In this document: in pieces, positions 5,267 to 32,378 of the stretch
Layout of the letters: every line of letters starts with the position of its first letter
Position numbering within the stretch: the stretch's first letter is position 1
NCBI GenBank assembly: GCA_934133175.1
Contig: CAKPAX010000002.1
Coordinates: 18,022-82,021, forward strand
Reading direction: 5' to 3'
Length of the DNA: 64,000 nucleotides
Source: an uncultured Clostridia bacterium
GTDB lineage: Bacteria > Bacillota > Clostridia > TANB77 > CAG-508
Notes under the pieces: model-generated
What the model was told of the DNA's origin: nothing
Database searches by the model: none
Seen by the model: the letters and a program-made list of their open reading frames with translations, nothing else
Translations under genes and position numbers: made by a program

Positions 5267-5977
5267 TTACCATTTCACCTCATCAATCTTTTTAGGATTT
5301 TCGTTTATTTCATTGCTTTCAATCTTTCCATTTTTTACTCTTATAACTCTATCTGCAACTTCTGCAATCAAGCTATTATGTGTTACTATAACTACAGTAT
5401 TCTTTTTATTTTCATCTTCACATTGTTTCTTTAATAATTTTAAAACTTCAACACCTGTTTTTGAATCTAATGCTCCTGTTGGTTCATCACATAACAACAA
5501 TAATGGATCTTTAGCTATAGCTCTTGCAATTGAAACTCTTTGTTGTTCTCCTCCTGATAATTGATTTGGAAATTTATTATAATGTTTTTCAAGTCCAACT
5601 TCTTTTAATATTTCTTTAGCATCTTTAGGATTTTTTACTATATCATCAATTAACTCAACATTTTCTAAAACTGTTAATGTTGGTAATATGTTATAAAATT
5701 GGAATATAAATCCTATATTTTCTGCTCTATAATCTGTAAGTTTGCTATCATTAAATTCTGATATAACTTGATCTCCTACTTTAATTTCACCACTTGTAAC
5801 TTTATCCATTCCACCTAATAAATTTAATAATGTAGATTTTCCTGCTCCTGATGGTCCAAGTATTACTACAAATTCTCCTTTGTTAATTGAAAAAGATACA
5901 CCATCTAATGCATTAAAGCTTTTTTCTCCAATGGTATATGTTTTCTTTACATTTTTTAATTTTATAAGTTCTTCCAT
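5267..5977 (-). CDS. ABC transporter ATP-binding protein (MacB/LolD family)
   Basis: Walker [10 protein letters not shown], the [14 protein letters not shown] signature and Walker B LLLCDEPT. Confidence 0.85.
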
Positions 5978-6102
5978 TAATTTTACCTCTTTCTTTATAT
6001 ATTAAATATCAAATATGAATGATTATTCACATTTCTTAAATATTATACTTCTATTTAATTATGAAGTCAATAAAAATATGAAACTTTTTTCACATTTTTA
6101 TA

Positions 6103-6131
6103 TTGCTTTTTAATTTTTTACAGTGTATAAT
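6103..6131 (+). promoter_or_regulatory. Sigma-A-type promoter for the TetR gene (-35 TTGCTT, 17-bp spacer, -10 TATAAT)
   Basis: TTGCTT at 6103-6108 and TATAAT at 6126-6131. RBS GAGGTGA at 6141-6147 precedes a GTG at 6153. Confidence 0.5.
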
Positions 6132-6152
6132 AATATTTATGAGGTGATTAAA

Positions 6153-6776
6153 GTGTCAGAAACTAGAATGCCAACACAAAAAAGATCAATTGAAAAAAGA
6201 AATAGAATTATAGAAAAAGGCTTTTATCTTATGTGTGAAGAAGGATATTACAATACGAACACAACACAAATTGCAGAATATGCTGGTGTTTCTACTGGCA
6301 TTATTTATCAATATTTTAATGACAAAAAAGATATTTTTATTGAAGGAGTAAAAAATTATTCTGATCAAATTATGTTTCCAATGTTAAATATATTAGAAAC
6401 ACAAAAAATTGATATAAACAATATGCAAAATGTAAAAAAATTGTTACATAATATTATAGATAAATTTATCGAAAGTCACACTATTTCTAAAAAAGCTCAT
6501 GAAGAATTAATTGCTATGTCGCACTTAGATGCTGATGTTGCAGCAATTTTTAAAAATTCTGAAATTAATATAACAAAAAAAGTTGTATCCTTATTAGAAG
6601 AAAATAATATTATTATAGATAATGCAAATGAAAAAGTTCATATAATAATTGGTGTTGTTGATAATTTATGTCATGAAATAGTTTATCATAAACATAGTAT
6701 TATAAATTATGATATTATGGTTGATGAAGTTATTAATATAATAATTATGCTTTTACAAACAAAAACGAATCAATAG
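6153..6776 (+). CDS. TetR/AcrR family transcriptional regulator, divergent from the ABC exporter
   Basis: N-terminal HTH with the TetR signature (RNRIIEKGFYLMCEEGYYNTNTTQIAEYAGVSTGIIYQYF). The start is taken as the GTG after the RBS; the ORF track begins at an upstream ATG at 6123. Confidence 0.75.
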   Translation: MSETRMPTQKRSIEKRNRIIEKGFYLMCEEGYYNTNTTQIAEYAGVSTGIIYQYFNDKKDIFIEGVKNYSDQIMFPMLNILETQKIDINNMQNVKKLLHNIIDKFIESHTISKKAHEELIAMSHLDADVAAIFKNSEINITKKVVSLLEENNIIIDNANEKVHIIIGVVDNLCHEIVYHKHSIINYDIMVDEVINIIIMLLQTKTNQ

Positions 6777-6800
6777 AATTTCTATAGATTCGTTTTTTAT

Positions 6801-7853
6801 TTATATTATTTTTCCTCCACCTACAACAATATCATCAATATAAAATACTGCAGATTGTCCTGGTGTTATTGCTCTTTGAGGTTCATCAAATTCAATTTTA
6901 ATATTATTACCTTCTTGAATAATATTAGCTTTTGCAGATTTAGAAGAATATCTTGTTTTTACTTCAACTTCTAGCTTTTCATTTATTTCATCAAAAAGTA
7001 ATAAATTTATATCTGTAACAATTACTTCTTTTTTGTATAATTCCTTTTCTTCTCCTACTATTACTTCATTTTTTTGTTTATCAAAACCAACAACAAACAA
7101 TGGAACCTTGTAGGATATACCCAAACCTTTACGTTGTCCTATTGTATAATTATATAAACCTGTATGTTTTCCTAAAACTTCTCCTTTAGTATTTACAATA
7201 TTTCCTTGTTTTGGTTTTATATTAGAATTATTTTCTAAAAATTTTTTATAATTGCCATCTGGCACAAAACAAATATCTTCACTATCTGGCTTATTAGCAA
7301 CCTTTAAATTATTTTCTCTTGCTATTTCTCTTATATTATCTTTACTTTCAAAATCAGATAAAGGAAATAATATATGTTCAACTAAATCTTTAGGAATATT
7401 CCATAAAACATAACTTTGATCTTTTTTTCCTGCATTAGATTTTTTTAATACCCATCTATTATATTTTTCACTATATTCCGTTTTAGCATAATGTCCTGTT
7501 GCTATGTAATTACATCCTAATTTTTTTGCTTTTTCCCACATAAAACCAAATTTCATATATTTATTACATTCTATACATGGATTTGGTGTTTTACAACAAG
7601 AATAACAATTTATAAAGTCATCAATAACGTATGTTTTAAATATATCTTTACAATTATAAATAAAATGTGGCATTCCTATTTGATTACATACATTTTTTGC
7701 ATCCATATATGTTTCTGTATTACAACAACTACTACCTGTAAATAATTCTAATGTTGTACCAATTACTTCATAACCTCTTTGTTTTAAAAGCAAAGCAGAT
7801 ACAGAACTATCTACTCCACCACTCATACCTAATAATACTTTTTTATTCTCCAT
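6801..7853 (-). CDS. mnmA: tRNA-specific 2-thiouridylase MnmA
   Basis: PP-loop LLGMSGGVDSSVSALLL and conserved MnmA Cys residues. AGGAAG RBS before ATG (MENKK). Last gene of the suf-sufU cluster. Confidence 0.9.
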   Translation of the reverse strand: MENKKVLLGMSGGVDSSVSALLLKQRGYEVIGTTLELFTGSSCCNTETYMDAKNVCNQIGMPHFIYNCKDIFKTYVIDDFINCYSCCKTPNPCIECNKYMKFGFMWEKAKKLGCNYIATGHYAKTEYSEKYNRWVLKKSNAGKKDQSYVLWNIPKDLVEHILFPLSDFESKDNIREIARENNLKVANKPDSEDICFVPDGNYKKFLENNSNIKPKQGNIVNTKGEVLGKHTGLYNYTIGQRKGLGISYKVPLFVVGFDKQKNEVIVGEEKELYKKEVIVTDINLLLFDEINEKLEVEVKTRYSSKSAKANIIQEGNNIKIEFDEPQRAITPGQSAVFYIDDIVVGGGKII

Positions 7854-7867
7854 ATTTTCTTCCTTTA

Positions 7868-8335
7868 CTAATGACAACAATTAATATTTCCGCTTCCATT
7901 ATTATCATTTTTATTCAATATATCTTCTAATGTATGCCATGCTAAAAGAGCACATTTAACTCTTGCTGGCATATTAGATATATTTCTAAATGCTATTGCA
8001 TCTTCTAATTTTTTTAGTTTTTCTTCATCTTTTTCTTCTCTTTTTATCATAGCTATAAAAGTACTTATAATATCTTTAGCTTCTTTAATTGTCTTTCCTC
8101 TCAAGGTATCAATCATTATAGATGTTGATGCTTGTGAAATAGCACATCCATGTCCTAAAAAAGCCATATCTTCAATTATATCTCCATTTAATTTTAACTC
8201 TAATGTTATTTCATCTCCGCAATTTGGATTGTGTCCAATTTCTTCATAATCTACATCATCTAATTTTTTCTTATTATACGAATTCATGCTATGTTCCATT
8301 ATTAATTCATTATATACATCTGTTAACTCGTCCAT
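7868..8335 (-). CDS. sufU: SUF-type Fe-S cluster scaffold SufU (NifU/IscU-like)
   Basis: Three conserved Cys (GDEITLELKL..., LGHGCAIS, RVKCALLA), as in SufU. Confidence 0.8.
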   Translation of the reverse strand: MDELTDVYNELIMEHSMNSYNKKKLDDVDYEEIGHNPNCGDEITLELKLNGDIIEDMAFLGHGCAISQASTSIMIDTLRGKTIKEAKDIISTFIAMIKREEKDEEKLKKLEDAIAFRNISNMPARVKCALLAWHTLEDILNKNDNNGSGNINCCH

Positions 8336-8347
8336 ATTAACCTCTTT

Positions 8348-9562
8348 TTATTTTATAATATATTTTTTAAACATGTCATAAGCTTTATTTAATGCTTTAA
8401 CTAATCTATCTACATCTTCTTTTGTGTTGTAAAAATAGAAACTTGCTCTACATGTAGAATCAATACCTAAAAATCTAAGTAGTGGCTGTGCACAATGATT
8501 TCCAGATCTAACACATACTCCTTCTGAATCTAATATACTTGCAACATCATGTGGGTGTACTCCATTTATATTAAATGAAATTACACTTGAATGATTTTCT
8601 TTATTAGGTGTTAAATATAGTGTTAAGAAATCTAATTTTGATAGTTCTTCTCTTGCATAAGAAAGTAAATCATTTTCTATTTTTTGTATATTATCATATC
8701 CAAAATTATTTATATAATCAATAGCTGAGCCTAATCCTATTACTCCTTCTATATTTTGTGTTCCTGCTTCAAATTTATTTGGAAGCGGAGCAAATGTAGT
8801 ATTTTGTTCATATACATACTCTATCATATCTCCACCCATTAAAAATGGAGTCATATCATTTAATATTTCTCTTTTACCATATAACACACCTATACCTAAA
8901 GGTGCTAACATTTTGTGTCCAGAAAATACTAAAAAGTCACAATCTAAATCTTGTACATCTATTTTCATATGAGGTATACTTTGAGATGCATCAACAATAA
9001 CTATAGCACCTTTTTTATGTGCATATTTTATAATTTTTTTAATATTATTTATTGTTCCTAGGACATTAGAAACATGTGTAATTCCAACTATTTTAGTTTT
9101 ATCTGTAATTTTATTTTCTATTTCTTCATCAGAAATTTCAAATTCATCATTTATATACATATAGTTTAATTTAGCATCTGTTTGCTTTGCAACCTTTTGC
9201 CAAGGAACCAAATTAGAATGATGTTCCATTATTGATATAACAATTTCATCATCTTTTTTTAGTTTGTCTAAACCATATGAGTATGCAATTAAATTTAAAC
9301 TTTCTGTTGCATTTTTAGAAAAAATTATTTCTTCTCTATGTTTTGCATTTATAAAATTTGCAATTTTTGTTCTTGTATCTTCATATATAGCACTTGCTTC
9401 TGTACTTAAAGAATACGCTCCTCTATGCACATTAGCATTATAATTTTCGTAAAAATCTTCTATTGCTTTTATTACTTGTTTTGGCTTTTGAGTTGTAGCT
9501 CCACTATCTAAATAGGCTATATTTCTATTTTTTAAAATTGGAAAATCATCTCTTATATCCAT
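8348..9562 (-). CDS. sufS: Cysteine desulfurase SufS (class V aminotransferase)
   Basis: 404 aa. PLP-lysine region SGHKM and active-site Cys loop RSGNHCAQP. Confidence 0.85.
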   Translation of the reverse strand: MDIRDDFPILKNRNIAYLDSGATTQKPKQVIKAIEDFYENYNANVHRGAYSLSTEASAIYEDTRTKIANFINAKHREEIIFSKNATESLNLIAYSYGLDKLKKDDEIVISIMEHHSNLVPWQKVAKQTDAKLNYMYINDEFEISDEEIENKITDKTKIVGITHVSNVLGTINNIKKIIKYAHKKGAIVIVDASQSIPHMKIDVQDLDCDFLVFSGHKMLAPLGIGVLYGKREILNDMTPFLMGGDMIEYVYEQNTTFAPLPNKFEAGTQNIEGVIGLGSAIDYINNFGYDNIQKIENDLLSYAREELSKLDFLTLYLTPNKENHSSVISFNINGVHPHDVASILDSEGVCVRSGNHCAQPLLRFLGIDSTCRASFYFYNTKEDVDRLVKALNKAYDMFKKYIIK

Positions 9563-9589
9563 TTCTTACACTTCCCATTTTTATATTTA

Positions 9590-10654
9590 TTAATCTAATC
9601 TTTTATCTATTTCTTGTAAAATTTTTTCTTTTAATTCTTCATTTTTTATGTTTTCTAAGATTTTATTAAATCTTGCTCTTACCATTAATTTCATAGCTTC
9701 TTTTAATTCAAAACCTCTACTCATAATGTAAAATAATTCTTTTTCTTCCATTTTTCCTGCTGATGTACTATGATTTCCTTCTACATCTTCTTCTGAACAT
9801 AAAAGCATTGGTAATGCAAGTGATTTAGCTTTATCAGACAACAACATACATGCTTCGTTTTCATTTCCTTTGGCTTTTTTACATCCTCTTTTAAAATCAA
9901 TTGTTCCTTTAAAATGTTTTCTAGCATTATCTTTTAATGCTCCTTGAACATCTATATCTATATTTGATTTTTTACCTCTTAATTCTCCTATATAATTCAA
10001 GTCAAATAATTGATTTTCTTTTCCTAAATATATTGTATTTAATATATTATTTGAACAATCTCCAATTAAATTCGAATAATAGTTTGTAATACTATTTTTT
10101 CCACCAAAATCTACTATTGTAAATTTTGCATCTGCATTTTCTTCAAAAGTATTTTGTATACTTAAAAAGTTATTTGAATTTTGGCTTAATAAATTAATTA
10201 TTATAACATTTATTTTAGAATTTTGTTTTGCTATTAAATTAATAATTCCATTATGAAATGCTTCTATATCATTAATAGATTCATATTTTAAAATAATAGT
10301 TGATTTTGTATTTTCGTTTGCCACAATTTCTATATTTTCAATAAAATTTAAGTTTTTTTCATCTATATTAAAATTAATTTGTAAATCATTTTTTATTTTA
10401 GAATTTACTACTATTTTCATTTTTTTATTTGATTTTGCTTTTACTTGACTTGTTAATATTTCTCCCAAACCATATGTTAAATTAAAATCATCAACATTTG
10501 TCTGTATATCTATTTTTGAATCTTGTCCAATTATTTCTATATTATTAAATTCTTCAACATCTTCAGGAATATTTATATTTTCTAATTTTATATTATTAAT
10601 ATTAAAATTTCTTGAAGTTCTAACTGGTGTTTCATTTAATTTTAATTCTTCCAT
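9590..10654 (-). CDS. sufD: Fe-S cluster assembly protein SufD
   Basis: 354 aa with a C-terminal SufB/SufD beta-helix region similar to the preceding SufB. Position between sufB and sufS. Confidence 0.75.
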   Translation of the reverse strand: MEELKLNETPVRTSRNFNINNIKLENINIPEDVEEFNNIEIIGQDSKIDIQTNVDDFNLTYGLGEILTSQVKAKSNKKMKIVVNSKIKNDLQINFNIDEKNLNFIENIEIVANENTKSTIILKYESINDIEAFHNGIINLIAKQNSKINVIIINLLSQNSNNFLSIQNTFEENADAKFTIVDFGGKNSITNYYSNLIGDCSNNILNTIYLGKENQLFDLNYIGELRGKKSNIDIDVQGALKDNARKHFKGTIDFKRGCKKAKGNENEACMLLSDKAKSLALPMLLCSEEDVEGNHSTSAGKMEEKELFYIMSRGFELKEAMKLMVRARFNKILENIKNEELKEKILQEIDKRLD

Positions 10655-26656: not shown

Positions 26657-29600
26657 CTACTTATTATTCATGATTTCAACAAATTGTTTTTCGTTAATTT
26701 CTTTATTTTTTAATAAATATTCAACTGCTTTTTCCGTTTTTCCTTTATTTTCTGTCAAAATTTTAATTGTTTTCTCATAACATTCTGAAAGAATTTTATT
26801 GGCTTCCTCATATATATATTTATCTATATTTTCTTCATAAGGAAATGTATATAATCCTAATTCTGACATACCATATTTTGTAATCATATTTCTTACCATT
26901 TTAGAAGCATTATTTAAATCAGTATTATTTCCAGACTCATGTTCACCTAAATAAACAATTTCATTACACATTCCACCTAAACAGCGACAAATCTTATTCA
27001 AATACTCTTGTCTACTTAAATTTTTTATTTTTTCATTATATCTAACATATCCCAATACGCCTCTGCCCTCAGCATTAATTGTTATTTTTTCTATTCCAGG
27101 ATTTTTTCCTAATATATAACTAATAGCTGCATGTCCAATTTCATGAATAGCTGTTCTTCTTTGAGATTCTTCATCTATTAAATCAGGATTTATCATATAT
27201 TCTCCTGTATATATATTTTTTATCATGTCTTGAATTGTTGGTATACATTCTTTTGTTATAGTTTTTATATCTCCTTTTTTAGTAGCTAATTTTAGCAATG
27301 TATTTTGTACAACTTTATCAACAAATCTTCCATTTCCTATGTTTTCTACATTACAGAAATACTTCATTAATCTTTTTAAATTTTCCTTTGCATCATCTTC
27401 TATTTGTAAGCCAATATCATGTATTTTTTTATAATATATTTCACAATATTCATCATCTGTATAATCAACAAAATTAAATGTATATCCAACTCTTGATGAA
27501 ATTCCTGGATTTATTTTTAAAAATTCACCCATTTCATTTTTATATCCAGCAAATACTACTACAAATTCACCTTTATGGTCTTCCATTGCTTTAATTAATG
27601 TTGCAATAGCTTCTGATCCAAAATCATATTGAGCATTATGTCCTTGAGCCAAACTATAAGCCTCGTCTATAAATAATACTCCTCCCATTGCTTTTTCAAT
27701 TACTTCTGCTGTTTTTATAGCTGTCTGCCCTACATATCCTGCAACCAAATCTTTTCTTTCTACTTCTATTAATTTATTTTCATGAATAATTCCAATATCA
27801 AATAAAACTTTAGCAATAATTCTTGCTACTGTTGTTTTACCTGTACCAGGATTGCCTGTAAAAATCATATGTAGATTTTGCCTAGGAATTACTAAATTTT
27901 GTTCTTCTGCTTTTTTAAAAAATTTTATATATTTTTCAAATTCAATAATTTTTTCTTTTATTTCTTTTAATCCAATCAAGTTATCAAGCATATCTTTTGC
28001 ATTATATTTAGAATAATTTGTATTATTTAGCTCTTCTATTGTTGGAATATCTTCTATTGTTATCATTTTTATATTTTTAGTTTCCCTTAAAGCATGTTTC
28101 ATAATTACTTCTTGTATCAATTTATCTACAAAACGCCCATTACCAAAATTTTTTTTACTACTATAATACTCAAAAATTTTTGATAAATCTTTATCTACTT
28201 TTGAGTTCATAGAATATCCCATATTATTCATCTTAAGCATAAACATTTGCTTAAGTTCATCCTCAGAGTAATCCTCAAAATTGAATGTATAACCTATTCT
28301 AGAAGAAATTCCCGGATTTATATCTAAAAATGTCTTCATTTCATCTTTATACCCAGCAAAAATAACAACAAAATTATTTTTATGGTCTTCCATTGCTTTA
28401 ATTAATGTTGCAATAGATTCTGATCCATAATCATTTTGAGAATTATGCCCTTGAGCCAAACTATAAGCCTCATCTATAAATAATACTCCTCCCATTGCTT
28501 TCTCAATTACTTCTGCCGTTTTTATAGCTGTCTGCCCTACATATCCTGCAACCAAATCTTTTCTTTCTACTTCTATTAATTTATTTTCATGAATAATTCC
28601 AATATCAAATAAAACTTTAGCAATAATTCTTGCTACTGTTGTTTTACCTGTACCAGGATTGCCTGTAAAAATCATATGTAGATTTTGCCTAGGAATTACT
28701 AAATTTTGTTCTTCTGCTTTTTTAAAAAATTTTATATATTTTTCAAATTCAATAATTTTTTCTTTTATTTCTTTTAATCCAATCAAGTTATCAAGCATAT
28801 CTTTTGCATTATATTTAGAATAATTTGTATTATTTAGCTCTTCTATTGTTGGAATATCTTCTATTGTTATCATTTTTATATTTTTAGTTTCCCTTAAAGC
28901 ATGTTTCATAATTACTTCTTGTATCAATTTATCTACAAAACGCCCATTACCAAAATTTTTTTTACTACTATAATACTCAAAAATTTTTGATAAATCTTTA
29001 TCTACTTTTGAGTTCATAGAATATCCCATATTATTCATCTTAAGCATAAACATTTGCTTAAGTTCATCCTCAGAGTAATCCTCAAAATTGAATGTATAAC
29101 CTATTCTAGAAGAAATTCCCGGATTTATATCTAAAAATGTCTTCATTTCATCTTTATACCCAGCAAAAATAACAACAAAATTATTTTTATGGTCTTCCAT
29201 TGCTTTAATTAATGTTGCAATAGATTCTGATCCATAATCATTTTGAGAATTATGCCCTTGAGCCAAACTATAAGCCTCATCTATAAATAATACTCCTCCC
29301 ATTGCTTTCTCAATTACTTCTGCCGTTTTTGGTGCTGTTTGTCCTATATATTCTGCAACTAGATCTTTTCTTTCTACTTCCACTAATTTATTTTCATAAA
29401 CCAATCCTAAATCATATAACATTTTTGCCATTATTCTTGCTACAGTTGTCTTTCCTGTACCAGGATTACCTGTAAAGATCATATGTAAATTAGATTCTGT
29501 AGTTTTTAATCCTAAGTTTTGGGCTTTTAATGTATATAATGCATATTTTTCAAATTTTTTTATATTATCTTTAACAGAATTTAATCCTATTATATTTTTT

Positions 29601-31372
29601 AGGCTTTCTTCTACTGTCTCTCTTTTATATATATTATCTGGAAAAATAAAACCTTTTTTACTAATACTATAATTAGATAAATATTTAGCTAATTCTTCAT
29701 TATAAAACGGAAAGAATTCTGCATTCATACTTACATATTCTATAAATTGTTCTTTTACTATTTTTCTAAGTTTTTGATTATTTCTCAATTTCATTGATAA
29801 CTCATTATTTAAGTTTTTGTAATATAACTCGAACAATTCGTCTATTGATAAGTTTGAGATTTTATATCTATTGTTTTGATATACAAACTTTATTTTTGTA
29901 TCTAATGATAATAATTCATCTACTGAATTTTTGTCAGATGCTATTATTACATAATCTTCATTAAATATTGATGTAATCAATTCTACTATTCTATTAACCC
30001 TTCTTAACTCTAGATATCTTGAAGTTCTTCCATTTTTAATTCTTCTATATTCATTAACAAATTCTTTTACATCTGTTAAAACATATAAATGTCTATCCAA
30101 AATTGAATTTTCTTCAACAGTCCATACATTAGTGCCAGGTTTTCCCTGTAATTCATAAGTATTTTCTAAAGCTAAATTATATAAACTCAAATACTCTGGT
30201 TCATCATTATCAATCTTTTTCCAAGCTTTTAATAATTTACAAATTTTATTAGCTAAATCAAACTTTCCACTTCCTCTATCTCCCTCTATAGAAATATGTA
30301 GACCGTTTTCTGTATTTACTTTATCAACTAATTCTTCAATGTTTTCAATTTTATTTCTGTATTCTAAAATTTTATTAATTTCTTGTATTCTGTCTTCTTT
30401 TTTCTTTTTCTCTATATTTTCAAATTGTTCTTCTTGTTTTTTTATACTCTGATTTTCTATTTCTTCTTGGTGCTCATTATAGTATTTTCTATCTTCTTCT
30501 ACCTTGCTCCATTGATTGCTTTTTTTCAAATAATAGAGATAACCTGCAACATCAAATATACAATATGGTCTAGTACAATTCCACCTATTACATTTATATA
30601 ATAACTCTTTCGTATTTCTATTAACATATATCCAATCACTTTCAGATATATATTTATATTTTAATACACTATTAACATCTTCATCATATCTAGTTTCATA
30701 TGCATTACAATTATATGGTAACCATATTTTAATATATTCTTTTTTTTCCTGTTCTACAAATACCATATCATTTTTTAACAATTCTAATGCTATATTAAAA
30801 GTTTTTTCAGGCACATTTTTTAATCCATCTTTAGGATTCCATTCAAAAGTAAAATAATCACTTTTAAAAACATTTCTTCTATATTCTTCTCTGTCTTTTA
30901 AAACATCTATTAGTAATCCTTTATTTTTTAAATATAATATATATCCAGCATAAAATTCAGGACATCTACTAAATTTACATTTAGCACAATTAACATTATT
31001 TTTATTTTCATATGCCTTAGGTGTAGTTGTAAATTTACTTTTTTTTGTTATACATTCACCATTTTCTATTTTGTTTTTTAATATTGTATCATCCACTTCT
31101 TTATCTCTTGTTTTGTAATCACATAAATTGTATATGTTATTTGAAATTTCAATTTTTTCTTTTTCATCTACTATAACTTTTTTTAAAGATATATCACCAT
31201 TAGCAAGAATTGCAATACACAATTTAATAAACTCAATAGAAGTAAATCTTAATCCATTAACTAAATTCCATTCAAAATCATAATCTACAACTTCTAAATT
31301 ATCTAATTTATTTATTTGGTTTATTATTTCCTTAGTTTCTTTTGAAAATTCATCACTTTTAACTTCACTCAT
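26657..31372 (-). CDS. 1571-aa soluble multi-AAA+ ATPase/FtsH-like protease: duplicated Cys-motif N-domain, one degenerate plus three intact SpoVK/CbbX-type AAA+ modules, C-terminal M41 zinc-metallopeptidase domain
   Basis: Three copies of GNPGTGKTTVARI Walker A with DEAY Walker B. An upstream module has the degenerate P-loop GDRGSGKF. The C-terminus has TAIHEIGHA (HExxH) and GNNTDLNNASKMVRNMITKYGMSELG matching the FtsH third-ligand region. No TM segments. Confidence 0.8.
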   Translation of the reverse strand: MSEVKSDEFSKETKEIINQINKLDNLEVVDYDFEWNLVNGLRFTSIEFIKLCIAILANGDISLKKVIVDEKEKIEISNNIYNLCDYKTRDKEVDDTILKNKIENGECITKKSKFTTTPKAYENKNNVNCAKCKFSRCPEFYAGYILYLKNKGLLIDVLKDREEYRRNVFKSDYFTFEWNPKDGLKNVPEKTFNIALELLKNDMVFVEQEKKEYIKIWLPYNCNAYETRYDEDVNSVLKYKYISESDWIYVNRNTKELLYKCNRWNCTRPYCIFDVAGYLYYLKKSNQWSKVEEDRKYYNEHQEEIENQSIKKQEEQFENIEKKKKEDRIQEINKILEYRNKIENIEELVDKVNTENGLHISIEGDRGSGKFDLANKICKLLKAWKKIDNDEPEYLSLYNLALENTYELQGKPGTNVWTVEENSILDRHLYVLTDVKEFVNEYRRIKNGRTSRYLELRRVNRIVELITSIFNEDYVIIASDKNSVDELLSLDTKIKFVYQNNRYKISNLSIDELFELYYKNLNNELSMKLRNNQKLRKIVKEQFIEYVSMNAEFFPFYNEELAKYLSNYSISKKGFIFPDNIYKRETVEESLKNIIGLNSVKDNIKKFEKYALYTLKAQNLGLKTTESNLHMIFTGNPGTGKTTVARIMAKMLYDLGLVYENKLVEVERKDLVAEYIGQTAPKTAEVIEKAMGGVLFIDEAYSLAQGHNSQNDYGSESIATLIKAMEDHKNNFVVIFAGYKDEMKTFLDINPGISSRIGYTFNFEDYSEDELKQMFMLKMNNMGYSMNSKVDKDLSKIFEYYSSKKNFGNGRFVDKLIQEVIMKHALRETKNIKMITIEDIPTIEELNNTNYSKYNAKDMLDNLIGLKEIKEKIIEFEKYIKFFKKAEEQNLVIPRQNLHMIFTGNPGTGKTTVARIIAKVLFDIGIIHENKLIEVERKDLVAGYVGQTAIKTAEVIEKAMGGVLFIDEAYSLAQGHNSQNDYGSESIATLIKAMEDHKNNFVVIFAGYKDEMKTFLDINPGISSRIGYTFNFEDYSEDELKQMFMLKMNNMGYSMNSKVDKDLSKIFEYYSSKKNFGNGRFVDKLIQEVIMKHALRETKNIKMITIEDIPTIEELNNTNYSKYNAKDMLDNLIGLKEIKEKIIEFEKYIKFFKKAEEQNLVIPRQNLHMIFTGNPGTGKTTVARIIAKVLFDIGIIHENKLIEVERKDLVAGYVGQTAIKTAEVIEKAMGGVLFIDEAYSLAQGHNAQYDFGSEAIATLIKAMEDHKGEFVVVFAGYKNEMGEFLKINPGISSRVGYTFNFVDYTDDEYCEIYYKKIHDIGLQIEDDAKENLKRLMKYFCNVENIGNGRFVDKVVQNTLLKLATKKGDIKTITKECIPTIQDMIKNIYTGEYMINPDLIDEESQRRTAIHEIGHAAISYILGKNPGIEKITINAEGRGVLGYVRYNEKIKNLSRQEYLNKICRCLGGMCNEIVYLGEHESGNNTDLNNASKMVRNMITKYGMSELGLYTFPYEENIDKYIYEEANKILSECYEKTIKILTENKGKTEKAVEYLLKNKEINEKQFVEIMNNK
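27583..30003. repeat. Three tandem in-frame 807-bp direct repeat units inside the giant gene. The middle unit is a mosaic: about 115 nt identical to one neighbour, about 690 nt identical to the other.
   Basis: The anchor ccattgctttaattaatgttgcaatag starts at 27583, 28390 and 29197, giving a period of 807 bp. Long stretches are 100% identical when read side by side. Confidence 0.85.
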
Positions 31373-32294: not shown

Positions 32295-32378
32295 TGGTGC
32301 GGATGAGAGGACTCGAACCTCCACGCCGTTGGCACTGGTTCCTAAGACCAGCGCGTCTGCCAGTTCCGCCACATCCGC
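32295..32378 (-). tRNA. tRNA-Leu(UAG)
   Basis: Reverse complement folds as acceptor GCGGATG/CATCCGC, anticodon stem CTGGT/ACCAG with loop CTTAGGA (anticodon TAG), long variable arm, T-loop TTCGAGT, and encoded CCA. Confidence 0.8.

What the first reader, a model, noticed from the sequence alone, without database searches (positions are those of the whole stretch)
27583..30003. Mosaic 3 x 807-bp in-frame tandem repeat: signature of a recent unequal-crossover module gain, or an assembly artefact
Three AAA+ modules are encoded by 807-bp units whose anchor sequence recurs at 27583, 28390 and 29197. The middle unit matches the upstream unit for its first 115 nt or so and the downstream unit for the remaining 690 nt or so, with 100% identity over those stretches. 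At protein level module 2 equals the N-half of module 3 plus the C-half of module 1. This is exactly the product expected when an ancestral two-module gene undergoes one unequal crossover (A, B gives A, B/A hybrid, B). Perfect identity over about 0.7 kb means the event is very recent, the copy number may vary in the population (2 versus 3 modules), or a repeat was mis-assembled.
Basis: seen in the sequence. Interest (0 to 1): 0.6.

Follow-up and report, generated by a model that had tools for sequence, protein, structure and literature searches.

The report
Freshly gained third ATPase module
A gut Clostridia gene for a large ATP-driven protease has very recently gained a third copy of its motor module through one unequal crossover, and near-identical strains still carry the two-module version, so this is an ordinary mechanism caught unusually early.

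Summary
Window 27711-28523 is base-for-base identical to 28518-29330. That is a perfect 2.007-copy, in-frame 807-nt tandem duplication laid over an older, diverged two-module repeat. It lies inside one 1571-aa gene (26657-31372, minus strand). The gene encodes a duplicated N-domain, a degenerate P-loop module, three SpoVK/CbbX-type AAA+ modules and an FtsH-type M41 peptidase.

The middle module equals the N-part of module 3 plus the C-part of module 1, with a single switch point inside a 6-nt interval.

- All 13 full-length alleles listed from the 28-member same-species protein cluster have two modules.
- One metagenome contig (L039) carries a two-module gene identical over 3909/3909 nt to the window gene minus one unit.
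- A separately assembled contig (L034) carries the same three-module allele with the same junction.
- No two-module allele examined contains the junction sequence, so a mis-assembly is unlikely.

Its coordinates and the 115/690 split are somewhat off.

Relatives carry 1-4 modules, and their internal modules have the same hybrid topology, so gains recur. The mechanism is textbook, so interest is moderate. The more unusual point is the family itself: SpoVK-clade AAA+ modules fused to a peptidase.

The parts
26657..31372 (-). Single ORF of 1571 aa: duplicated N-domain, degenerate P-loop module, three AAA+ modules, M41 peptidase
   Evidence: ORF list, translation, Pfam AAA x3, AAA_lid_6 x3 and Peptidase_M41
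27711..29330 (-). Perfect in-frame tandem duplication: two identical 807-nt units plus 6 nt (27711-28523 = 28518-29330)
   Evidence: Exact lag-807 run of 813 nt. It is the only structural difference from conspecific contigs
28518..28523 (-). Crossover interval in the middle module (gene nt 2850-2855, codons 950-952). It is bounded by module-3-type TAT (28524-28526) and a module-1-type G (28517)
   Evidence: Five-way alignment of modules. The junction 34-mer is unique in the window
28814..29620 (-). AAA+ module 1 (aa 585-853), 'first'-type; Walker A 29447-29470, Walker B 29270-29293
28007..28813 (-). AAA+ module 2 (aa 854-1122), hybrid: the N-part is identical to module 3 and the C-part is identical to module 1. 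All ATPase motifs are intact
27200..28006 (-). AAA+ module 3 (aa 1123-1391), 'last'-type. Together with the M41 domain it is collinear with the FtsH cytosolic region
26660..27199 (-). Peptidase_M41 domain (aa 1392-1571). HEIGH lies at 27131-27145, and a conserved Asp aligns with the Asp of the FtsH 'GAANDI' stretch
29621..30382 (-). Degenerate P-loop module (aa 331-584; GDRGSGK). It is not part of the DNA repeat
30383..31372 (-). Family-specific N-terminal region. It is internally duplicated and has conserved Cys triads (C129/C132/C137 and C261/C266/C271). No Pfam match and no PDB fold match
27290..29597 (-). Full extent of period-807 similarity (old diverged repeat plus the new perfect duplication)
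   Evidence: Lag-807 identity profile
29183..29380 (-). Hot-spot of inter-module exchange in module 1 (gene nt 1993-2190, around the pore loop and Walker B). Gene-conversion tracts here differ between strains, and the crossover point lies inside it

Best explanation
The gene was a two-module gene (module A 'first-type', module B 'last-type'). The modules are about 59% identical as protein and about 86% identical as DNA over the conserved ATPase core.

One unequal exchange took place between module B on one copy of the chromosome and module A on the sister copy. The switch resolved between two informative sites 6 nt apart, about ten codons upstream of Walker B. The product is A, B/A hybrid, B.

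The exchange was in register (807 nt = 269 codons). It fell inside the conserved core, so both inter-module linkers were copied intact. The hybrid therefore keeps Walker A, the pore-loop Tyr, Walker B, the sensor-1 GY motif, the NPGxxSR arginine and the sensor-2 GNGR motif.

The event is very recent, and the locus is polymorphic (2 versus 3 modules) among near-clonal genomes. The 807-nt perfect repeat will itself recombine readily, so gain and loss are both expected.

Inferred, not shown: the protein is a soluble FtsH-like hexameric protease. Each AAA+ module would form one coaxial ring above the M41 ring, so the duplication would add one more ATPase tier to the translocation channel.
For: Shown:
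- An exact 813-nt lag-807 run.
- A single switch point in the middle unit.
- The window with one unit removed is collinear with L001 over 23.9 kb at 99.2% identity.
- The two-module gene on L039 equals the collapsed window gene over 3909/3909 nt. That locus differs from the collapsed window at 2 of 22,610 nt.
- The three-module allele with the identical junction occurs in a second assembly, L034.
- All 13 full-length conspecific alleles listed have two modules. The window allele is nested within their diversity: 20-29 differences outside the hot-spot, against 13-44 among the others.
- The four closest other-species relatives found (P0002, P0003, P0005, P0007, 66-68% identity) have two modules.
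- The junction string is absent from the 10 module copies aligned across five alleles, and the 27-nt junction is absent from the 8 further conspecific loci scanned.
- The same stretch shows polymorphic gene-conversion tracts in both directions. Exact M1=M2 runs range from 38 nt in the window to 138 nt in L025. The modules therefore recombine with each other in this species.
- All ATPase motifs are present three times.
- Internal modules of older 3- and 4-module relatives have the same topology (N-part like the last module, C-part like the first) and keep Walker A and B. Gained modules can therefore be retained.

For the stacked-ring inference:
- The last module plus M41 is collinear with FtsH residues 22-452.
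- Module counts of 1, 2, 3 and 4 occur, always with one M41 domain.
Against: - No reads are available, so the copy number in the source genome is not measured directly.
- If the assemblies are short-read graph assemblies, the repeat node is traversed twice. The two copies would then be identical by construction, and three modules is only a minimum.
- The only two differences between the window and L034 in 13.3 kb are the same A/G change at paralogous sites of both copies. This fits an unphased inter-copy SNP as well as gene conversion.
- Within the near-clonal group the direction is not resolved. L039 could be the ancestor or a re-collapsed revertant.
- The switch interval has only 6 nt of identity. 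The longest exact inter-module tract in this allele is 38 nt, which is short for RecA-driven exchange.
- The ring arrangement is not supported by the model (pTM 0.42).
Confidence: 0.85

Rival explanations
1. Assembly artefact. The source genome has two modules and the assembler went round a repeat loop once too often or joined chimeric reads.
For: Perfect identity of the copies is what a graph assembler produces when it traverses one node twice. The near-identical contig L039 has two modules. The window's exact protein is not on record.
Against: A loop needs a shared k-mer at the join. At the junction, modules 1 and 3 share only 6 nt, flanked by mismatches. The junction string TAT-AAAAAC-G occurs in none of the 10 module copies aligned across five alleles, and the 27-nt junction is absent from the 8 further conspecific loci scanned. 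The same junction and module count occur in a different assembly whose contig ends where the window continues. The product is exactly in frame and in register.
Confidence: 0.06
2. The three-module form is the older state in this clone or species. It is kept homogeneous by gene conversion, and the two-module alleles are deletions.
For: Perfect 807-nt direct repeats delete easily. The paired A/G difference between the window and L034 could reflect copy homogenisation. L039 could be a revertant.
Against: All 13 diverse full-length conspecific alleles listed have two modules, as do the four closest other-species relatives found. The window allele is nested among them, not basal. Zero differences in 807 nt, against about 0.8-1% between strains, gives a probability of about 0.002 if the copies were as old as the strain divergence. 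This rival can hold only for the last step inside the clone.
Confidence: 0.07
3. Same product, different mechanism. The duplication arose by replication slippage or template switching at the 6-nt microhomology (RecA-independent), not by homologous unequal exchange.
For: The switch interval is only 6 nt, and the longest exact tract between the two modules in this allele is 38 nt.
Against: The switch is exactly in register between two homologous modules, in the most similar part of the repeat (about 86% identity over 350 nt). The same stretch shows gene-conversion tracts in other strains, which points to homology-driven pairing. The 6 nt is only the spacing between informative sites, not the length of homology used.
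Confidence: 0.25

Closest known systems
Anti-Lepore-type unequal crossover (haemoglobin delta, beta-delta hybrid, beta) and the haptoglobin Hp2 intragenic duplication. Both examples are recalled from my own knowledge.
   Same: Two diverged tandem homologues misalign. One exchange gives A, B/A hybrid, B, with the hybrid collinear with both parents, and the ancestral arrangement still segregates in the population.
   Different: Here the units are domains inside one bacterial ORF, not whole genes or exon blocks. The product is a longer single polypeptide with an extra ATPase module.
FtsH / AFG3L2 / YME1 AAA+ zinc metalloproteases (PDB 2ce7, 3kds, 6nyy)
   Same: The last AAA+ module plus the M41 domain is collinear with the FtsH cytosolic region. 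HExxH is conserved, as is the Asp that aligns with the Asp of the FtsH 'GAANDI' stretch.
   Different: No transmembrane anchor (maximum 19-residue hydropathy 1.39). It has 2-3 (1-4 in the family) ATPase modules instead of one. The modules score as SpoVK/CbbX/EccA-type, not FtsH-type. The FtsH equivalog score is 117 bits against a cut-off of 600.
SpoVK / CbbX / EccA clade of AAA+ chaperones (PDB 3zuh, 3syl, 9lur; PMC11513918)
   Same: Each module aligns end to end with CbbX at about 40% identity, TM-score 0.74-0.77. SpoVK is the best NCBIfam model (257-267 bits per module). FAGY, NPGxxSR and GNGR motifs are present.
   Different: Scores lie below every equivalog cut-off. The modules are tandemly repeated and fused to a peptidase. 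The 2024 survey of this clade reports finding no peptidase association. The Arg four residues after the conserved Asn (CbbX NPGFR) is Ser here.
Type II AAA+ proteins with two stacked rings (p97/Cdc48, Rix7, Drg1, ClpB)
   Same: Tandem AAA+ modules in one chain. Two-module stretches of the model align loosely with Rix7, p97 and Drg1 protomers.
   Different: Those matches are poor (rmsd 11-13 A, TM-score 0.35-0.45), and the inter-module geometry of the model is not confident (pTM 0.42). In type II proteins D1 and D2 are ancient and fixed in number. Here the number varies from 1 to 4 and changes within a species.

Membership tests
Tandem duplication by unequal crossover between diverged repeats (anti-Lepore type) | The period of the new repeat equals the spacing of the parental homologues, and the duplication is in register | tested here: met
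   The exact repeat period is 807 nt, equal to the spacing of the old modules, and equals 269 codons
Tandem duplication by unequal crossover between diverged repeats (anti-Lepore type) | The hybrid unit is collinear with the distal parent and then the proximal parent, with a single switch point | tested here: met
   The middle unit equals module 3 up to gene nt 2855 and equals module 1 from nt 2850 onward, with no other switches
Tandem duplication by unequal crossover between diverged repeats (anti-Lepore type) | The unduplicated arrangement with the same parental sequences exists | tested here: met
   The L039 two-module gene is identical over 3909/3909 nt to the window gene minus one unit. 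13 other two-module alleles are listed
Tandem duplication by unequal crossover between diverged repeats (anti-Lepore type) | Physical confirmation of copy number in the source DNA | not testable with these tools
   No reads are available. The only indirect support is a second assembly with the same allele
SpoVK-EccA-like AAA+ clade (as defined in PMC11513918) | Best profile matches are SpoVK, CbbX and EccA rather than FtsH | tested here: met
   Per module: SpoVK 257-267 bits, CbbX 205-240 bits, EccA 206-209 bits. FtsH models are not listed at E <= 1e-5
SpoVK-EccA-like AAA+ clade (as defined in PMC11513918) | GY signature in sensor-1; conserved Asn upstream of the arginine finger; second arginine (sensor-2) | tested here: inconclusive
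   FAGY, NPGISSR and GNGRF are each present three times and align with CbbX AGY, NPGFRSR and the ANAR motif. The Arg four residues after the Asn is Ser here; the Arg six residues after it is kept.
SpoVK (TIGR02881), CbbX (TIGR02880) and EccA (TIGR03922) equivalogs | Score above the curated cut-off for a single module | tested here: not met
   267 against 423, 240 against 459 and 209 against 467 bits. The whole-protein scores exceed the cut-offs only because three modules add up.
FtsH family | N-terminal transmembrane anchor | tested here: not met
   No segment reaches typical transmembrane hydropathy (maximum 1.39 over 19 residues)
FtsH family | M41 peptidase with HExxH and a third zinc ligand Asp | tested here: met
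   HEIGH at aa 1410. 'SGNNTDL' aligns with FtsH 'SGAANDI'. Peptidase_M41 scores 98.6 bits against a cut-off of 29.9. That this Asp is the third zinc ligand in FtsH is recalled from my own knowledge.
FtsH family | Equivalog score (TIGR01241) | tested here: not met
   116.8 bits against a cut-off of 600
IetA / IteA anti-phage ATPase | Score above the family threshold | tested here: not met
   NF042959 scores 118 bits summed over three modules (42 bits for one) against a cut-off of 510. The PADLOC IetA score of 123 bits is also summed over three modules. The flanking ORFs scanned around the gene showed no protease domain.

The most novel reading that the evidence does not exclude
This small family (89 representatives at 50% identity among 1.84 billion proteins) may be a soluble, FtsH-like protease whose unfoldase is a stack of SpoVK/CbbX-clade AAA+ rings. 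The number of tiers (1-4) would be tuned by recurrent unequal crossover and would still be polymorphic within a species. The window and its near-clonal relatives (L039 with two modules, L034 with three) would then be a natural isogenic pair for asking what an extra ATPase ring does. It would also be a counter-example to the published view that this AAA+ clade has no peptidase partners.
Probability: 0.35. Interest if true: 0.6.

Novelty: new variant of a known kind. Interest (0 to 1): 0.4.

Why it matters
Multi-ring AAA+ machines are assumed to have arisen by ancient duplication of the ATPase module, but intermediate steps are rarely seen. Here the step is visible at single-event resolution: the exact parental two-module allele, the hybrid product and the crossover interval, all among near-identical genomes. 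Older relatives show that such gained modules can be kept.

This gives a natural 2-versus-3-module pair for testing what an additional ATPase module does to an AAA+ protease.

It also documents SpoVK/CbbX-type AAA+ modules fused directly to an M41 peptidase. A 2024 survey of that clade reported finding no such association.

Practically, the locus is one where short-read assemblies can mis-state copy number and hide differences between the copies.

Tried and rejected
- Junction-specific 27-mer and a window-specific 32-mer searched in JGI metagenome contigs: no hits. This is uninformative, since the species is probably absent there.
- GTDB representative-genome scan: it did not recover the species itself. 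The best hit was Clostridium sp. CAG:567 at 67%, so the organism is named only as an uncultured gut Clostridia lineage.
- Exact look-ups of the window's 1571-aa protein and of its DnaE: not on record.
- Sigma-70 promoter scan: 51 sites against 46.7 expected, so no signal.
- AlphaFold2 model of aa 585-1571: the domains are confident (pLDDT 81) but the inter-module arrangement is not (pTM 0.42). It cannot decide between stacked rings and an in-plane arrangement.
- Contig L035 ends inside the gene. I considered this as a sign of a second three-module sample. I rejected it because the break falls in the stretch (gene nt 1993-2130) where modules 1 and 2 are identical for up to 138 nt in some two-module alleles (L025). 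A tract of that length could break a k=127 graph without a third module, but the contig holds only module 2, so L035's own tract could not be measured.
- Defence-system reading (IetA/IteA, TRIP13): the scores are sums of weak per-module hits, well below threshold where one is defined (IteA). The neighbours scanned in related species are unrelated or housekeeping genes.
- Conserved operon partners: the flanking 110-aa and 123-aa ORFs and the RNase Y/YmdB synteny are conserved only within the species.
- Literature searches for peptidase fusions in this clade and for AAA+ module gain by unequal crossover found nothing specific beyond PMC11513918.
Full report
**1. What is in the sequence**

The interval lies inside one ORF on the minus strand, 26657-31372, 1571 aa. 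A lag-807 self-comparison shows a perfect run of 813 nt: 27711-28523 equals 28518-29330. Window 27711-29330 is therefore an exact period-807 array of 2.007 copies.

On both sides the lag-807 identity falls to 60-95% and then to background. The whole period-807 region is about 27290-29597. This is the signature of a new, perfect duplication laid over an older, diverged two-unit repeat.

807 nt is 269 codons. At protein level aa 682-977 equals aa 951-1246. There are no N characters in the window.

Three details need correcting:
- The gene is on the minus strand.
- The identical stretches of the middle unit are 134 nt and 679 nt rather than 115 and 690, and the partner labels are mixed between strands.

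The true module array is 27200-29620.

**2. The gene**

Pfam finds three AAA domains, three AAA_lid_6 domains and a C-terminal Peptidase_M41. Scanned alone, each 269-aa module scores best against three models:

| Model | Bits per module | Equivalog cut-off |
|---|---|---|
| SpoVK | 257-267 | 423 |
| CbbX | 205-240 | 459 |
| EccA | 206-209 | 467 |

All scores are below the cut-offs. The whole-protein scores pass only because three modules add up.

- **Modules versus CbbX.** Each module aligns end to end with CbbX (PDB 3zuh/3syl) at about 40% identity. The model superposes with TM-score 0.74-0.77.
- **ATPase motifs.** Walker A, the Tyr that aligns with CbbX 'GQYIGHTA', Walker B, FAGY, NPGISSR and GNGRF are each present three times.
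- **FtsH-like cassette.** The last module plus the M41 domain is collinear with the FtsH cytosolic region (2ce7 residues 22-452).
- **Peptidase site.** The M41 site is intact: HEIGH, plus the Asp that aligns with the Asp of FtsH 'SGAANDI'. That this Asp is the third zinc ligand is recalled from my own knowledge.
- **No membrane anchor.** No transmembrane segment is predicted.
- **Upstream regions.** Upstream of the modules lie a degenerate P-loop module (aa 331-584) and an internally duplicated N-terminal region with conserved Cys triads. The latter has no Pfam match. Its confident model (pLDDT 85.6, pTM 0.80) has no PDB fold match.

**3. The middle module is a clean hybrid**

I aligned the three window modules with the two modules of a conspecific contig. 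The middle module is identical to module 3 up to gene nt 2855 and identical to module 1 from nt 2850 onward, with no other switch.

The switch interval is AAAAAC (window 28518-28523). It is bounded by module-3-type TAT on one side and a module-1-type G on the other. It lies about ten codons upstream of Walker B.

Both inter-module linkers are exact copies of the pre-existing linker. The only new junction is inside the conserved ATPase core.

**4. Related strains**

The closest database protein, P0001, is 1302 aa, which is exactly 1571 minus 269. Its contig L001 is syntenic and about 99% identical to the window over 24 kb. The neighbours are DnaE, a cation ATPase, NUDIX, RNase Y, YmdB, SpoVS and RecA. 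The only structural difference is the 807-nt unit. After removing one unit the genes are collinear, with 54 mismatches in 3909 nt.

The 90%-identity cluster has 28 members. All 13 full-length alleles listed have two modules. The window allele is nested within their diversity.

Looking up contigs that encode the window's neighbouring proteins gave two decisive loci.

- **L039** (ENA ERZ27287307, k141 contig of 65 kb) has a two-module gene identical over 3909/3909 nt to the window gene minus one unit. It includes sites that were otherwise private to the window. Over the 22,610-nt locus it differs from the collapsed window at only two sites (window 38328 and 40804).
- **L034** (ENA ERZ28613878, 56.9-kb scaffold) has a 1571-aa three-module gene with the same exact 813-nt run and the same junction. 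Its contig ends at about window 20172, where the window continues, so it is a separate assembly.

Two-module and three-module alleles therefore coexist among genomes that differ by about 1e-4 per site (2 of 13,310 nt and 2 of 22,610 nt).

**5. Is it an assembly artefact?**

A graph or overlap assembler can over-traverse a loop only if the two modules share a k-mer at the join. Here they share 6 nt. The junction string TAT-AAAAAC-G occurs in none of the 10 module copies aligned across five alleles. The 27-nt junction is also absent from the 8 further conspecific loci scanned. Reads containing the junction must therefore exist, and a second assembly has it too. I put the artefact reading at about 6%.

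Two caveats remain.

- If the assemblies are short-read, the repeat node is traversed twice. The copies are then identical by construction, and three modules is a minimum.
- The only two differences between the window and L034 in 13.3 kb are the same A/G change at paralogous positions of both copies (gene nt 2411 and 3218; K804R and K1073R). This is either true homogenisation by gene conversion or an unphased inter-copy SNP that the two assemblies resolved differently.

**6. Mechanism and timing**

The product is exactly what one unequal exchange between module B and module A gives (A, B/A, B).

The same stretch (gene nt 1993-2190) is a hot-spot of inter-module exchange in this species. Strains differ in gene-conversion tracts in both directions. 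Exact module 1 = module 2 runs range from 38 nt (window) to 138 nt (L025). Outgroup proteins show that the window's module 1 keeps the older first-type residues (APKT) around the switch point. Most other strains carry last-module-type residues there.

Homology-driven mispairing is thus the best explanation. Template switching at microhomology cannot be excluded.

Strain divergence is about 0.8-1%. Zero differences in 807 nt would have a probability of about 0.002 if the copies were as old as the strains. The near-identity of L039 puts the event within the history of one clone.

Within that clone, direction (gain, or gain followed by re-loss in L039) cannot be resolved. At species level two modules is ancestral. 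The four closest other-species relatives found (66-68% identity) have two modules.

**7. The wider family**

Relatives have 1, 2, 3 or 4 modules, always with one M41 domain.

In every 3- or 4-module relative except P0021, the C-part of the internal module resembles the first module. In all except P0021 and L016, its N-part resembles the last module. In P0004, for example, the N-part is 64% identical to the last module and 27% to the first, while the C-part is 58-61% identical to the first and 29-44% to the last. This is the same hybrid topology, only older.

Nearest-neighbour analysis suggests at least three further gains: the P0004 lineage, the P0006/P0015/P0020 clade with an extra gain in P0006, and L016. 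Those internal modules keep Walker A and B, so gained modules can be maintained.

The family-specific N-region has only 89 representatives at 50% identity among 1.84 billion proteins. Synteny is conserved only within the species.

**8. How the protein probably works (inference)**

I propose a soluble FtsH-like hexamer in which each AAA+ module forms one coaxial ring above the M41 ring. The duplication would add a tier.

The arguments are:
- collinearity of the last module plus M41 with FtsH;
- one M41 domain per chain, whatever the module number;
- the occurrence of four modules, which cannot tile a six-membered ring.

The AlphaFold model does not settle the arrangement (pTM 0.42; two-module matches to Rix7 and p97 have rmsd 11-13 A).

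**9. Comparison with what is known**

The genetic event is the bacterial, intragenic counterpart of anti-Lepore-type unequal crossover (recalled from my own knowledge). It is a known kind of event.

The protein is not an FtsH, SpoVK, CbbX, EccA or IetA/IteA equivalog by score. It combines SpoVK/CbbX-clade modules with an M41 peptidase. The 2024 analysis of that clade states that no fusion or association with peptidases was found (PMC11513918).

**10. Verdict**

The artefact reading is unlikely but not formally excluded.

Interest is moderate (0.4). The mechanism is ordinary, but it is caught at single-event resolution with the parental allele in hand, in an uncharacterised protease family whose module number is evolutionarily labile.

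Noticed in passing
window 26657-31372 (whole gene) and relatives P0001-P0022, P0046-P0132: SpoVK/CbbX/EccA-clade AAA+ modules are fused directly to an intact FtsH-type M41 peptidase in a soluble protein. A 2024 survey of this clade (PMC11513918) reports finding no peptidase fusions or associations. The family is small: 89 representatives at 50% identity.
   Followed up: partly
L002-L006 (gene nt 846, equivalent to window ~30527): A 1-nt deletion allele (TATTTGAAAAAAAGC to TATTTAAAAAAAGC) splits the gene into 290-aa and 908-aa ORFs. The 290-aa product is encoded on six contigs, shown at five places in five different samples, including an NCBI assembly, so the gene appears dispensable in some strains.
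   Followed up: partly
window 28962 and 28155 (gene nt 2411 and 3218) versus L034: The only two differences between the window and the other three-module contig over 13.3 kb are the same A/G substitution at paralogous positions of both repeat copies. This is either concerted evolution of the copies or an unphased inter-copy SNP merged by the assemblers.
   Followed up: partly
window 29183-29380 (module 1, gene nt 1993-2190) and the paralogous stretch of the last module: There is a mosaic of inter-module gene-conversion tracts that differ between strains and run in both directions. Exact module 1 = module 2 runs range from 38 to 138 nt. A k=127 contig (L035) ends in this stretch (gene nt 1993-2130), where some two-module alleles have a 138-nt identical tract.
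   Followed up: yes
window 30383-31372 (aa 1-330): The N-terminal region is an internal duplication (about aa 30-165 versus 173-300) with conserved Cys triads C129/C132/C137 and C261/C266/C271. The AlphaFold model is confident (pLDDT 85.6, pTM 0.80), but there is no Pfam match and no PDB fold match.
   Followed up: partly
window ~32.1-32.5 kb (tRNA at 32298-32378, minus strand) versus L023 and L032: Synteny upstream of the 110-aa ORF breaks in some strains. RelA_SpoT-like and methyltransferase genes (L023), or SocA_Panacea and HTH genes (L032), replace the NUDIX and cation-ATPase genes. This is a variable spot next to a tRNA gene.
   Followed up: no
window 61993-63183 and 63205-64000 (minus strand): Two tandem acetate kinase paralogues, about 77% identical at DNA level with 1215-nt spacing. 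The second runs off the window.
   Followed up: no
L016 (MAG CALXVT010000011.1), gene 5398-10638: A three-module relative in which modules 1 and 3 are 98% identical over one 45-aa window of the core while their flanks are diverged. This suggests inter-module gene conversion in another species too.
   Followed up: no
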